Part shown: one piece after another, positions 58,210 through 62,608 of the stretch
Layout: each line of letters opens with the position of its first letter
How positions within the stretch are numbered: the stretch's first letter is position 1
Origin: Candidatus Pacearchaeota archaeon
Lineage (GTDB): Archaea; Nanobdellota; Nanobdellia; Pacearchaeales; GW2011-AR1
Length of the DNA stretch: 64,000 bases
Direction of reading: 5' to 3'
NCBI GenBank assembly: GCA_016866995.1
Contig: VGKQ01000003.1
Coordinates: forward strand, 118 to 64,117
Notes under the pieces: generated by a model
The model's database searches: none
What the model was told of the DNA's origin: nothing
Seen by the model: only the letters and a program-made list of their open reading frames with translations
Program-made: the position numbers and the translations under genes

Positions 58210-58809
58210 ATGAAGGTTTCTGTATTTATAGACGGAAATAATTTTTATCATGGTTTGAGATATATTTATGGCAAAGAAGCAAGATTAAAAATGTTTGATT
58301 ATAAGGGGTTTATAGATTATCTCTTAAAAGACAGAGAGGTTTCAGAAATTTTTTATTATAATGCTGAGCTTGACAAATCAAAAAATCAAGAAAAATTTAA
58401 AAGTCAGAAAGAATTTTTTAATAATCTAAAGAAAATACCCAAATTTAATTTAATATTATGCAAGTTATTAAAAAGAAAAATAAAAGGAACAAACAAATTT
58501 TATTATGTCCTTAAAGAGGATGATATACATATGGCTGTTGATATAGTAGAAGGAGCTTGCGAAGATAATTTTGATGTTGCTATTCTTGTATCAGGAGATG
58601 GTGATTTTGTTCCTGCTGTGAGGGCTGTTCAGAAGAGAAGCAAGATTGTGGAAAATATTTATTTCAAAAAAAGCTCATCCAGAAACTTAAAACAACATTG
58701 CAACAAATCTTTAGAGCTAACAAAAGAAATTTTAGACAATTTTTCCAGTCATTATCAAAAAACAAACCCGTTAGGGCTTATTAGCAGAAAATCTAATGAT
58801 TTTCGCTAA
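58210..58809 (+). CDS. NYN/LabA-like (PIN-related) domain protein, copy 2
   Basis: VSVFIDGNNFYH and AILVSGDGDFVPAVRAVQ signatures. The stop codon lies inside the first dif-like site. Confidence 0.7.
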   Translation: MKVSVFIDGNNFYHGLRYIYGKEARLKMFDYKGFIDYLLKDREVSEIFYYNAELDKSKNQEKFKSQKEFFNNLKKIPKFNLILCKLLKRKIKGTNKFYYVLKEDDIHMAVDIVEGACEDNFDVAILVSGDGDFVPAVRAVQKRSKIVENIYFKKSSSRNLKQHCNKSLELTKEILDNFSSHYQKTNPLGLISRKSNDFR

Positions 58810-58827
58810 AAGTCTGTTATATTCAAT
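58800..58827 (+). repeat. dif-like site J0 (array boundary, degenerate left arm overlapping the NYN stop codon)
   Basis: TTTTCGCTAAA-AGTCTG-TTATATTCAAT. The right arm is identical to J3, J5 and J10. Confidence 0.45.
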
Positions 58828-58982
58828 TCTGGGTTTGCCTTACAGGCACGCTTCGCTACCGAAAATTCTAATGTTGTTATCTTCGTTAAAATCATAAAGA
58901 AAACTCTCACAAAATTGCTACGCAACTTTGCCTAACAAAATTTTAACGAAATTGTTGAAAAAAACCTCCACCAAAAGCACAC
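58827..58982 (+). repeat. left arm of the segmented inverted repeat bracketing ORF 59022-59426
   Basis: Blocks ttctgggtttgcc, ccgaaaattc, gttgttat, ttgttgaaaaa and aaaagcac(ac) are each the reverse complement of a block in 59427-59489. The left arm carries extra inserted segments. Confidence 0.8.
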
Positions 58983-58992
58983 AAACGATAGA

Positions 58993-59000
58993 TTTAAATA
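58993..59000 (+). promoter_or_regulatory. TATA box of module ORF 59022-59426
   Basis: tttaaata is centred about 26 nt upstream of the ATG, the spacing expected for a leaderless archaeal mRNA. Confidence 0.5.
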
Positions 59001-59021
59001 ATTCTTAATTTAAATAAATAT

Positions 59022-59426
59022 ATGATGCCAAAAAATAACAAACCAGATGGTGTTTCAAATGCTTTAATCCTACTTTGGATAAGTCTTGGAGTAGGAGTTC
59101 TAAACAGCATAATTAATTTTTCAAATTCTGTTGATTTGGCACAAGGATATGGTTCTGGATTTGTTATTTTTGTAACTCTTTTCACATTGGTGTTTATGGC
59201 TTTCTTTATCTATATGATAGGGCAAGGAAAGAATTGGGCAAGAATCACTTTTTTGGTTCTATTCATAATTGGAATTCCTTTTTCCGTATTGCCTGCAATA
59301 GTCTTGCTTGTAACAAACCCAATCTCTGCAATGTTTTCAGCAGGCATAACTATATTGCAATTAATCGCACTAATTTTCTTATTCCAAAAAAGTTCTTCTG
59401 ATTGGTTTCATTCTATGAAAAAATAG
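59022..59426 (+). CDS. small membrane protein (module J0-J1)
   Basis: 134 aa, about 4 hydrophobic helices, own TATA box. Confidence 0.6.
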   Translation: MMPKNNKPDGVSNALILLWISLGVGVLNSIINFSNSVDLAQGYGSGFVIFVTLFTLVFMAFFIYMIGQGKNWARITFLVLFIIGIPFSVLPAIVLLVTNPISAMFSAGITILQLIALIFLFQKSSSDWFHSMKK

Positions 59427-59489
59427 TGTGCTTTCCAAAAATAATTTTTCAACAACTACAATAACAACGAATTTTCGGCAAACCCAGAA
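59427..59489 (+). repeat. right arm of the segmented inverted repeat bracketing ORF 59022-59426
   Basis: gtgtgcttt, tttttcaacaa, ataacaac, gaattttcgg and (gg)caaacccagaa. About 51 matched nt in five colinear blocks. Confidence 0.8.
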
Positions 59490-59491
59490 CT

Positions 59492-59530
59492 CGAGATTTT
59501 TCCCTTCGGGAACATTGCATTAAAATCTCG
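59492..59530 (+). other. module-terminal stem-loop preceding J1
   Basis: cgagatttt ... aaaatctcg (9 bp) enclosing the inner hairpin ttccc-ttc-gggaa. It ends 14 nt before the J1 left arm. Confidence 0.6.
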
Positions 59531-59544
59531 TCCTCATTTCATTC

Positions 59545-59572
59545 GGAGAAACTAACAGGGCTTATACGCGAT
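59545..59572 (+). repeat. dif-like site J1
   Basis: GGAGAAACTAA-CAGGGC-TTATACGCGAT. Confidence 0.55.
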
Positions 59573-59723
59573 AGCTCTTCTGAAGAAGACTACCTCTGCG
59601 GGGAAATTTATATTATCATCAGCAAGAATTTTTTAAAGTTAGCCCCTTGACCACGCAACAAGTTGCTCTCGCTTCATTATAAATCCATTTCATTCCTTTA
59701 TACATTCAGCTCGGGGGACTTAA
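59562..59723 (+). repeat. noncoding module R-div (diverged relative of module R) between J1 and J2
   Basis: About 160 bp with no ORF. It shares with R the 3' end ATTCAGCTCG..GGGA.T.TAA and an internal AGCCCC..ACCAC...TTGCTC.CGC block. Confidence 0.5.
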
Positions 59724-62088: not shown

Positions 62089-62361
62089 TCAATTCTTGTA
62101 AATCTTATCGTGATGATCAAAATCCGAGAAAAAGATAAAATTATTCATTTTGTCAAATTTGAATACAAGAACAAAATGCCCAACATGAGCTCTCTTAAAT
62201 TCTTTCATGTCATATCTTAAATTTTTATAATGCTCGATGTCAGGGCTATTTAAGACTTCATTCATCTTATTAAGAAGATTTTCGTAAAGTTGCTTGTCTT
62301 TTTTCTCAAGTTTAGCAAGAATTCTATCAAACTCTTTACTAGTCTTATATTGCCTCGGCAT
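62089..62361 (-). CDS. relE: RelE/ParE-family toxin (module J7-J8)
   Basis: 90 aa. The KLEKKDKQLYENLLNKMNEVL ... KNLRYDMKEFKRAHVGHFVLVFKFD ... FDHHDKIY pattern is typical of RelE/StbE toxins. Confidence 0.7.
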   Translation of the reverse strand: MPRQYKTSKEFDRILAKLEKKDKQLYENLLNKMNEVLNSPDIEHYKNLRYDMKEFKRAHVGHFVLVFKFDKMNNFIFFSDFDHHDKIYKN

Positions 62362-62362
62362 T

Positions 62363-62608
62363 TTACCTCTTTTCTATCTTCTTTCTTAATTGTTTGATAG
62401 AATTAAGGGTTTCGCCATAACCTTCTTCTTCAATTTTTCTTAATTTTTCTAAGTATTCAGGCCTTAATTCAGGTTCTATAATATTTGCTCCACATTCTAT
62501 AACAATTTTGGCAATAGCTTCACTTTTAGTCTTTAGATTATATCTAGCTTTAACTATATTCAAAATTTGATTAGCTTCATTAGGAATTTCAATCATTGCT
62601 TGAACCAT
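62363..62608 (-). CDS. putative antitoxin (DUF2683-like) of the RelE module
   Basis: 81 aa, ending 1 nt before the toxin start. The N-terminus IEIPNEANQILNIVKARYNLKTKSEAIAKIV resembles archaeal RelE-partner antitoxins. Confidence 0.55.
   Translation of the reverse strand: MVQAMIEIPNEANQILNIVKARYNLKTKSEAIAKIVIECGANIIEPELRPEYLEKLRKIEEEGYGETLNSIKQLRKKIEKR

What the first reader, a model, noticed from the sequence alone, without database searches (positions are those of the whole stretch)
58827..59489. Whole gene plus promoter enclosed by a long segmented inverted repeat (about 51 matched nt in five colinear blocks)
Seen directly:
- Upstream of ORF 59022-59426 lie the blocks ttctgggtttgcc / ccgaaaattc / gttgttat / ttgttgaaaaa / aaaagcac.
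- They reappear as exact or near-exact reverse complements in reverse order immediately after the stop codon (gtgtgcttt / tttttcaacaa / ataacaac / gaattttcgg / ggcaaacccagaa).
- The left arm is interrupted by three extra segments of roughly 19, 4 and 72 nt. The right arm is almost contiguous.
- The TATA box and ORF therefore sit in the loop of a potential long stem.

Inference, alternatives:
- The gene was inserted into the apex of a pre-existing palindromic element.
- The single-stranded form of the module folds into a stem that juxtaposes its ends.
- At the RNA level, 5'/3' pairing encloses the mRNA in the way archaeal rRNA processing stems enclose rRNAs. The predicted leaderless start argues against the upstream arm being transcribed with the ORF.
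Basis: seen in the sequence. Interest (0 to 1): 0.6.

Follow-up and report, generated by a model that had tools for sequence, protein, structure and literature searches.

The report
Palindromic shell framing an archaeal gene cassette
The inverted repeat around this small membrane-protein gene is real: it is the two halves of a conserved, base-pair-covarying DNA "shell" that related tiny (DPANN) archaea reuse to carry many unrelated genes as mobile cassettes between Xer/dif-like recombination sites.

Summary
All five colinear inverted blocks exist as described. The colinear chain covers 48 nt, against 9.6 ± 7.3 (max 38) in 600 genomic control pairs.

- **Context.** The gene sits in a 739-bp cassette (58817-59555), the first unit of a cassette array (58.8 kb to the contig end). 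The units are separated by dif-like sites [..ATAA][CAnnnn][TTAT..]. A second array on contig C4 lies beside a XerA-type recombinase.
- **The design is general.** In 18 cassettes of this genome, left and right flanks pair within a cassette far better than between cassettes (0/20,000 permutations).
- **The arms are not gene-specific.** At least 17 cassettes in other DPANN genomes carry the same arms at 80-97% identity, and these 17 plus ours hold at least 14 unrelated ORF families.
- **The arms covary.** 93.6% of cells pair. 15 of 51 pairs show compensatory changes, against 3-6 in slid controls. Block 1 has at least six mutually complementary haplotypes.
- **Folding.** As single-stranded DNA the cassette folds with z = -6.7, and all blocks are in the MFE structure.

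Best reading: a long DNA-level stem of the cassette framework. In the excised circle it closes the recombination module. In the array it encloses the cargo. Block 4 doubles as outward-facing T5 terminators. RNA 5'/3' pairing is unlikely. The recombination role is inferred, not shown.

The parts
58817..59555 (+). Whole cassette: from TTATATTCAAT (right arm of the left boundary site) to ..GGAGAAACTAA (left arm of the next site)
   Evidence: Site list. Boundaries of the repeated 157-nt cassette. Conserved start TTAnnnTCAAT in 18 shells.
58807..58827 (+). Left boundary site, degenerate on its left half (TAA AAGTCTG|TTATATTCAAT). It overlaps the stop codon of the NYN-domain gene and marks the end of the array.
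   Evidence: NYN domain.
58827..58839 (+). B1 left arm TTCTGGGTTTGCC
   Evidence: 8 of 11 pairs show compensatory changes.
58840..58858 (+). 19-nt unpaired insert of the left arm. It is haplotype-linked to B1 and always lies on the left strand.
   Evidence: Alignment A2
58859..58868 (+). B2 left arm CCGAAAATTC
58869..58872 (+). Conserved 4-nt bulge (TAAT) between B2 and B3, left strand only
58873..58880 (+). B3 left arm GTTGTTAT
   Evidence: compensatory GTTGTTATC->TTTGATATC with GATAACAAC->GATATCAAA
58882..58950 (+). Side hairpin within the left arm (stem TTCGTTAAAAT / ATTTTAACGAA). Other genomes have a second version (TTCGTTTAA..TTAAACGAA).
   Evidence: I13; helix 4
58952..58962 (+). B4 left arm TTGTTGAAAAA. 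It reads T5 on the minus strand. Conservation with other genomes ends exactly here.
58974..58982 (+). B5 left arm AAAGCACAC. This innermost pair is specific to this cargo.
58985..59000 (+). BRE/TATA-like promoter (AACGATAGATTTAAATA). It occupies the same position as the AACGAAAGATTTAT element of the other shells.
   Evidence: Function inferred.
59022..59426 (+). Cargo ORF: 134 aa, hydrophobic, about four predicted membrane spans read by eye. No Pfam family above cut-off.
   Evidence: Homologues in 13 of 401 genomes of the order, including this genome's own copy; best other is 85% identical.
59426..59434 (+). B5' GTGTGCTTT
59445..59455 (+). B4' TTTTTCAACAA (T5 on the + strand, just after the stop codon). 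Conservation with other genomes resumes at 59444.
59461..59468 (+). B3' ATAACAAC
59469..59478 (+). B2' GAATTTTCGG
59477..59489 (+). B1' GGCAAACCCAGAA
59490..59544 (+). Accessory module between the right arm and the site. It holds a hairpin (CGAGATTTT..AAAATCTCG) with the conserved ACATTGCAYT motif (59512-59521).
59545..59572 (+). Right boundary dif-like site GGAGAAACTAA / CAGGGC / TTATACGCGAT
59556..59723 (+). Separate 168-bp ORF-less cassette. It is not part of the palindrome.

Best explanation
**What it is.**
- The two arms are the two strands of a long, imperfect stem of about 50 bp in five blocks.
- The left strand also carries a conserved bulge, an unpaired insert and a side hairpin.
- This stem is the non-cargo framework ("shell") of a mobile gene cassette.
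- Cassettes of this kind lie head to tail between dif-like core sites in arrays of Pacearchaeota/Woesearchaeota genomes.
- One array in this genome is next to a XerA-family tyrosine recombinase.

**Layout of the shell.** site right arm (TTAnnnTCAAT) - B1 - insert - B2 - bulge - B3 - side hairpin - B4 - [promoter, cargo] - B4' - B3' - B2' - B1' - accessory module (hairpin + ACATTGCAYT) - site left arm.

**Why the gene appears to be in the loop.**
- The crossover site lies outside the stem.
- Integration therefore leaves the two halves of the stem on opposite sides of the cargo.
- In the excised circle the same stem closes a loop of roughly 95-130 nt that holds the accessory module and the core site.

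**Shown here.**
- The arms are real.
- The design holds for most gene-bearing cassettes of this genome.
- The same arms carry unrelated cargo in other genomes.
- Complementarity is maintained by compensatory changes.
- The fold is thermodynamically strong as single-stranded DNA.

**Inferred.**
- The pairing happens in single-stranded DNA.
- It serves recombination, either by presenting or insulating the recombination module, or by bringing the two boundary sites of one cassette together. This would be analogous to folded attC sites and the CTX-phage attP hairpin.
- B4/B4' additionally act as oligo-T terminators for transcripts leaving the cargo in either direction.
For: **Reality of the arms.**

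**Array context.**
- Dif-like sites occur at every junction.
- A 157-nt cassette is present three times and is bounded at the sites.
- A XerA-family recombinase (NF040815, 236.6 bits, cut-off 220) lies next to a second array on C4.

**Generality within this genome.**
- Across 18 cassettes the within-cassette left versus reverse-complement-right score averages 23.4.
- Permuted pairings average 18.3 ± 0.73, and 0 of 20,000 permutations reach the observed value.
- The arms are cassette-specific, for example GATGGACAAGCGC, AGAAAAATTGGGCTTT and TTCAAAAATCGTGC.

**Shell shared across genomes.**
- The left arm (58815-58962) and the right arm plus module (59444-59568) are 80-97% identical (mostly 85-97%) in other genera.
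- Different sequence lies between them.
- 18 shells, ours included, carry at least 14 unrelated ORF families of 74-284 aa.
- 26 exact matches to B3'+B2' were found among species-representative genomes, mostly Woese-, Pace- and Nanoarchaeota MAGs.

**Covariation on alignment A2.**
- 93.6% of cells pair, against 33-58% in slid controls.
- 15 pairs have changes on both sides, against 3-6 in slid controls and 6.3 ± 1.7 in shuffles (0/500).
- B1 has at least six complementary haplotypes: TTCTGGGTTTGCC, TTCTGGGCTTGCC, TTCGGGGCTCGCC, TTTCCAATCTCC, TATTTCCACTTTC and TTTTTTTACTGCC.
- The innermost promoter-like repeat also co-varies on both sides.

**Folding as single-stranded DNA.**
- The minimum free energy is -103.6 kcal/mol, against -65.5 ± 5.7 for shuffles (z = -6.7).
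- B1-B5 appear in both the MFE and the centroid structure.

**Evidence that folding matters in this system.**
- Some junctions on C4 and in relatives are long palindromes, for example TAACAGCGATTAAG ... CTTAATCGC-ATA-TGTTAG.
- When folded, these rebuild a double-stranded core site.
Against: - No experiment or read data are available.
- About one third of shells are hybrids whose B1 halves do not match. B1 pairing is therefore dispensable, or those cassettes are inactive.
- Xer-type recombinases normally act on double-stranded core sites. Most junctions in this array are plain double-stranded-type sites that need no folding.
- Complementarity could be kept by concerted evolution (templated repair between arms) rather than by selection for a function.
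- The 18 shells are related, so compensatory events are fewer than compensatory cells.
- The ORF-less cassettes of this array have only weak arms (z = -2.1).
- No recombinase gene lies next to the array that holds this cassette. The array runs off the contig end.
Confidence: 0.6

Rival explanations
1. Symmetric expression insulator. The arms are inverted copies of the same regulatory signals (outward T-tract terminators, inward BRE/TATA-like elements), so that cargo in either orientation is expressed and shielded from neighbours. Complementarity is a by-product, kept by gene conversion, and no pairing is needed.
For: - B4 and B4' each read as a T5 tract on the strand leaving the cargo.
- In the other shells the left side reads T5-A-T5 right after the stop codon.
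- The innermost repeat is a BRE/TATA-like motif on both sides.
- Cargo occurs in both orientations in this genome's array.
- The promoter lies inside the arms.
Against: - B1, B2 and B3 carry no recognisable promoter or terminator signal in most haplotypes, yet they covary strongly.
- The B1 haplotypes have unrelated sequences but are always complementary.
- The positions of bulges and the side hairpin are conserved on one strand only. That matters for a fold, not for paired signals.
Confidence: 0.2
2. RNA-level stem. A transcript spanning both arms pairs 5' and 3' of the mRNA, for processing, circularisation or stability, like archaeal rRNA processing stems.
For: - The long-range complementarity and covariation would equally fit an RNA helix.
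Against: - The TATA-like box lies inside the left arm, and the start looks leaderless.
- A T5 tract precedes the far arm in both reading directions.
- G.T cells (14) do not exceed A.C cells (23), so there is no strand-specific wobble tolerance.
- No Rfam family matches.
- No bulge-helix-bulge motif is seen in the helix.
Confidence: 0.05
3. Terminal inverted repeats of a non-autonomous transposon (MITE-like element) carrying a passenger gene.
For: - A perfect 13-bp terminal inverted repeat bounds a 663-bp unit.
- The same ends occur with different passengers in many genomes.
Against: - There is no target-site duplication at 58826/59490.
- The arms always abut a dif-like site on the left and the accessory module plus site on the right. 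They are never found in other contexts among the loci examined.
- The pair is unique in this genome.
- No transposase is associated.
- The terminal sequences vary by covariation, whereas transposase-recognised ends are conserved in sequence.
Confidence: 0.05

Closest known systems
Integron gene cassettes and attC sites (IntI/attI/attC), including the archaeal integrons of Ghaly et al. 2022 (PMC9668308)
   Same: - Tandem array of small, mostly single-gene cassettes bounded by recombination sites.
- Site structure is conserved by complementarity rather than by sequence.
- The crossover lies at N|TTA, similar to G|TTRRRY.
- A short core/inverse-core repeat flanks each integrated cassette.
- Some junctions are attC-like long palindromes.
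- ORF-less and repeated cassettes occur, as does a toxin-antitoxin cassette.
   Different: - The recombinase next to the sister array is XerA-type and lacks the IntI-specific domain. It matches TIGR02249 only at positions 1-180 and 236-315, at 210 bits against a cut-off of 265.
- Most junctions are plain dif-like double-stranded-type core sites.
- The palindrome is about 50 bp plus branches and lies outside the crossover site. Its halves therefore end up on both sides of the cargo rather than both at its 3' end.
- Cassettes carry their own promoter and occur in both orientations. Ghaly et al. describe same-orientation ORFs and IntI with the additional domain.
Acinetobacter plasmid pdif (dif) modules (Xer-site-flanked gene modules; from my own knowledge, not checked here)
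   Same: - Discrete gene modules are bounded by Xer/dif-like sites.
- They are found in different contexts with different neighbours.
   Different: - pdif sites flanking a module are in inverted orientation, whereas the sites here are directly repeated.
- No long module-internal palindrome or shared promoter/terminator shell is described for pdif modules.
- They are bacterial XerC/XerD plasmid systems.
CTX-phage type IMEX elements (single-stranded attP hairpin used by XerCD; from my own knowledge)
   Same: A Xer-family recombinase uses a recombination substrate made by intrastrand folding of inverted sequences in single-stranded DNA.
   Different: - In CTX the fold itself builds the core site from two inverted half-regions about 90 nt apart.
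- Here the stem lies beside the core site and spans the whole cargo in the integrated state.
- No phage functions are present.
Vibrio chromosomal-integron repeats (VCR-type species-specific attC; from my own knowledge)
   Same: A highly conserved non-coding element accompanies many unrelated cargo genes within a lineage.
   Different: - VCRs are single attC units of about 125 nt at one end of each cassette.
- Here the conserved element is split into two complementary halves around the cargo, and it includes expression signals.

Membership tests
Integron (IntI/attC) cassette | Integrase of the IntI family with the IntI-specific additional domain | tested here: not met
   - Only two tyrosine recombinases are in the assembly, and both are XerA family (NF040815).
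- Their TIGR02249 score is 210 bits against a cut-off of 265.
- The model region of about 180-236 is missing.
- None lies next to this array. The assembly is 85% complete.
Integron (IntI/attC) cassette | attC at the 3' end of the cassette: R''-L''...L'-R' imperfect palindrome of 57-141 nt with the crossover in R' (G|TTRRRY) | tested here: inconclusive
   - The right end of this cassette has a plain site, GGAGAAACTAA/CAGGGC/TTATACGCGAT, without an L'-R' partner.
- attC-like double sites exist at other junctions of the same system.
- Cassette starts share N|TTAnnnTCAAT.
- HattCI and IntegronFinder were not available.
Integron (IntI/attC) cassette | Promoterless cassettes in one orientation, expressed from Pc | tested here: not met
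   - The cassette has its own BRE/TATA-like box.
- Genes in the array lie on both strands.
Xer/dif-type site-specific recombination site | Two inverted arms of about 11 bp around a 6-bp central region, with a XerA-family recombinase in the genome | tested here: met
   - The consensus is [GGGAATATAA][CAnnnn][TTATATTCAAT], found at 11 junctions of this array and 7 on C4.
- XerA paralogues are present.
- Recombination activity was not tested.
Structured RNA (Rfam families) | Match to a curated covariance model | tested here: not met
   Only two tRNAs were found in the window at gathering thresholds.
MITE / TIR transposon | Terminal inverted repeats with target-site duplication and multiple dispersed copies | tested here: not met
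   - There is no duplication at the ends.
- The arms are unique in the genome.
- Copies in other genomes always lie between dif-like sites.

The most novel reading that the evidence does not exclude
The shell is a cargo-capture vehicle.
- It would be a preformed palindromic hairpin whose apex is a palindromic BRE-TATA-BRE promoter (AACGAAAGATTTAT|ATAAATCTTTCGTT).
- New coding regions would be inserted into it with boundaries at about the transcription start and exactly at the stop codon.
- The Xer-type system would then mobilise the loaded shell.
- This would give a concrete, testable route for making new gene cassettes, which is the unsolved step in integron biology.
Probability: 0.15. Interest if true: 0.85.

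Novelty: new variant of a known kind. Interest (0 to 1): 0.7.

Why it matters
**What would be new.**
- Integrons are the textbook gene-capture system. Their sites work as folded single strands, and how cassettes are made is unknown.
- This lineage of very small archaea appears to run a comparable system with a Xer-type enzyme.
- Each cassette is built as a standard palindromic shell with covarying stems, its own promoter and terminators, and exchangeable cargo.
- I found no description of this in the searched literature.

**What it would offer if the stem is needed for recombination.**
- A second, independent case of structure-specific DNA recombination.
- A handle on how cargo is loaded.

**Practical use.** The conserved arms are a search key for finding such cassettes and their cargo in metagenomes. 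The cargo is largely small membrane and lipoproteins of host-dependent archaea.

Tried and rejected
- **attC reading of the junction core.** I first read it as the R''-L'' half of an attC and looked for an L'-R' partner in this array. None exists. The dif-like reading fits better.
- **Arms flanking the site in G144.** I took the G144 locus as evidence that the arms flank the site in linear DNA. I rejected this: the downstream arm there belongs to a neighbouring cassette of the same shell family.
- **Very cheap gap extension.** This scoring inflated the null (z 1.9), so I replaced it with chain statistics and stricter scoring.
- **ORF-less shell.** An exact B4...B4' pattern with a 0-200 nt loop gave 0 hits in 391 genomes of the family. 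The search was for exact matches only, so diverged copies would be missed.
- **Palindromic promoter apex.** CGAAAGATTTATAAATCTTTCG with up to 3 mismatches is absent from this genome. The fetched loci gave only three hits, all the same single-sided promoter sequence with no palindromic right half.
- **Strand bias of wobble pairs.** None was found.
- **Pfam for the cargo protein.** Only a sub-threshold AmiS/UreI hit.
- **Broad DNA searches.** Two searches at E <= 1 returned mostly noise below about 1e-10. Only the strong hits were used.

Full report
**1. Observation**

| Block | Left | Right |
|---|---|---|
| B1 | 58827-58839 | 59477-59489 |
| B2 | 58859-58868 | 59469-59478 |
| B3 | 58873-58880 | 59461-59468 |
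| B4 | 58952-58962 | 59445-59455 |
| B5 | 58974-58982 | 59426-59434 |

- The left arm has extra segments of 19, 4 and about 71 nt.
- The 71-nt segment is itself a hairpin: 58882-58892 pairs with 58940-58950.
- The best colinear chain of exact inverted matches of at least 8 nt is 48 nt. In 600 pairs of genomic segments with the same geometry the mean is 9.6 ± 7.3 and the maximum 38.
- Gapped alignment is exceeded by 0-4 of 1500 controls when long gaps are affordable. An almost gap-free-cost scheme is uninformative.
- B1 and B2 occur nowhere else in the 1.06-Mb assembly.

**2. Context**

The window is contig C3 of a 70-contig, 33% G+C, 85%-complete genome. Both of its tyrosine recombinases fall in the archaeal XerA family. 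Earlier notes of this scan call the genome Pacearchaeota. Records with the same arms are labelled Woese-, Pace- or Nanoarchaeota.

From 58.8 kb to the contig end the sequence is cut into units by a recurrent site, [..GAATATAA][CAnnnn][TTATATTCAAT]. This has two inverted arms around six bases, like a dif site.
- A 157-nt ORF-less unit occurs three times and is bounded at these sites.
- A ParE/antitoxin pair occupies one unit.
- The finding's gene therefore lies in a 739-bp cassette, 58817-59555.
- The stretch 59556-59723 is a separate 168-bp unit.

Contig C4 carries a second array that starts beside a XerA-type recombinase lacking the IntI-specific region. Some of its junctions are long attC-like palindromes, for example TAACAGCGATTAAG...CTTAATCGC-ATA-TGTTAGG. 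When folded, these rebuild a double-stranded core site.

**3. The gene-in-loop design is general**

I compared the first 200 nt of each of 18 cassettes (11 on C3, 7 on C4) with the reverse complement of the last 260 nt of every cassette.
- Within-cassette scores average 23.4, against 18.3 ± 0.73 for permuted pairings. None of 20,000 permutations reaches the observed mean.
- The left arm starts 12-110 nt after the site. The right arm ends 60-110 nt before the next site.
- Arm sequences differ from cassette to cassette:
  - TAAATTTTTGGGCTCGGGC
  - GATGGACAAGCGC
  - ACGATTTTTGGGCTTTATTAAAA
  - AGAAAAATTGGGCTTT
  - TTCAAAAATCGTGC
- Between the right arm and the site lies a module with a T-rich hairpin and a conserved ACATTGCAYT motif.

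**4. The arms do not belong to the gene**

The ORF has homologues in 13 of 401 genomes of the order, including this genome's own copy. The best outside match is 85% identical, and several others about 50%. It is a real, patchily distributed gene.

DNA searches show that the arms are far more widespread than the gene.
- The left arm (58815-58962) and the right arm with module (59444-59568) recur at 80-97% identity (mostly 85-97%) in many genera. They lie on the same contigs, 315-1056 nt apart.
- Similarity to our cassette stops exactly at the inner edges of B4 and B4'.
- Between them each genome has a different ORF.
- Across 18 shells there are at least 14 unrelated cargo families of 74-284 aa. 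All but ours are on the opposite strand.
- In those shells the palindrome continues to the ORF boundaries as AGAACGAAAGATTTAT / ATAAATCTTTCGTTCT. The right copy is the BRE/TATA promoter. The left copy overlaps the stop codon.
- Our cassette has B5 in that position instead.
- In our cassette a promoter-like AACGATAGATTTAAATA sits where the other shells have their left copy.

**5. Covariation**

I aligned the left and right arms of 18 shells (A2) and counted pairs against the five helices plus the side hairpin.

| Measure | Observed | Slid controls | Shuffles |
|---|---|---|---|
| Cells forming standard pairs | 93.6% | 33-58% | 89.1 ± 0.5% (0/500) |
| Pairs (of 51) changed on both sides | 15 | 3-6 | 6.3 ± 1.7 (0/500) |

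- B1 alone has 8 of 11 compensatory pairs.
- B1 has at least six haplotypes that are unrelated in sequence yet complementary.
- B2 and B3 also show matched double changes.
- The inner promoter-like repeat changes on both sides together in two shells.
- The unpaired features (the 16-19 nt insert, the 4-nt bulge and the side hairpin) always sit on the left strand.
- About a third of shells are hybrids with mismatched B1 halves.
- G.T cells number 14 and A.C cells 23, so neither strand is favoured.

**6. Folding**

As single-stranded DNA the cassette (58811-59560) folds at -103.6 kcal/mol, against -65.5 ± 5.7 for shuffles (z = -6.7). B1-B5 and the side hairpin appear in both the MFE and the centroid structure.
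- The circle-junction sequence (right arm, module, site, left arm) forms the same stem and closes the module and site in a loop.
- At the base of the stem, CTGTTA of the left boundary pairs with TAACAG of the right boundary. The two crossover positions therefore face each other.
- The 157-nt empty cassette has the same topology but is weak (z = -2.1).

**7. Interpretation**

*Shown:* the repeat is the split stem of a reusable cassette framework, and its complementarity is maintained in evolution.

*Inferred:*
- The stem forms in single-stranded DNA and serves recombination.
- It would do so either by closing and insulating the recombination module in the circle, or by bringing together the two sites that bound one cassette.
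- B4/B4' double as outward oligo-T terminators.

*Arguments for a DNA-level fold:*
- attC-like folded sites exist in the same system.
- The bulges are strand-asymmetric but conserved.
- Elements with different functions on the two sides (promoter versus 3' end) covary.
- There is no RNA-type wobble bias.
- The promoter and the T5 tracts lie inside the arms.

*Arguments against, or open points:*
- Hybrid shells exist.
- Most junctions are ordinary double-stranded-type sites.
- There are no in vivo data.

**8. Comparison with known systems**

The closest system is the integron.
- Ghaly et al. 2022 describe archaeal integrons with IntI carrying the additional domain, classical attC sites and same-orientation ORFs. 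None of those three features holds here.
- Literature searches for Xer-type cassette arrays in DPANN archaea found nothing.
- pdif modules, the CTX attP hairpin and VCR repeats each share one aspect. These comparisons rest on my own knowledge.
- Notes from other agents of this scan on other genomes reached similar readings. I treated them as leads. The tests above were run independently on this locus.

Noticed in passing
L022, L023, L024, L025, L026, L028, L030, L045 (cargo boundaries); compare window 58963-59443: In shells with minus-strand cargo, conservation runs from the TATA box to about the transcription start. Leaderless cargos begin at ATG, and others bring their own GGAG leader. On the other side conservation resumes exactly at a fixed TAA stop embedded in GATTTAT. 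Cargo exchange is therefore nearly ORF-precise. No mechanism is known to me.
   Followed up: partly
window 58807-58830: The leftmost site of the array is degenerate on its left half, overlaps the stop codon of the NYN-domain gene, and scores better as a site on the minus strand (AATTGAATATAA/CAGACT/TTTAGCGAAAA). It may be a hybrid or an inverted terminal site marking the array end.
   Followed up: partly
window 59512-59521; C4 about 45020, 45665, 47375, 49685; C3 64508 (contig coordinates): A conserved motif, ACATTGCAYT or ACGTTGCACT, lies about 35-40 nt upstream of nearly every site. It resembles an extra recombinase half-site (ATTGAATATAA) and could be an accessory binding arm.
   Followed up: no
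C4:44100-49800 (contig coordinates, same genome): A second, complete array beside a XerA-type recombinase mixes attC-like double (folded-type) junctions with plain single dif-like junctions. This suggests both substrate forms are used by one system.
   Followed up: partly
window 58840-58858 and 59490-59544: The B1 haplotype is linked to the sequence of the adjacent left-strand insert and to the type of the right-hand module. These parts are contiguous only in the circular form of the cassette.
   Followed up: partly
L071, L081, L082: The 19-nt B3'+B2' word also occurs once each in a Bacteroidetes MAG and two Clostridia MAGs, without the rest of the shell. This is probably chance, but it was not examined.
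   Followed up: no
window 62089-62608: A ParE-like toxin gene and a DUF2683 gene, both on the minus strand, occupy one cassette of the array, as is common in chromosomal integrons.
   Followed up: no
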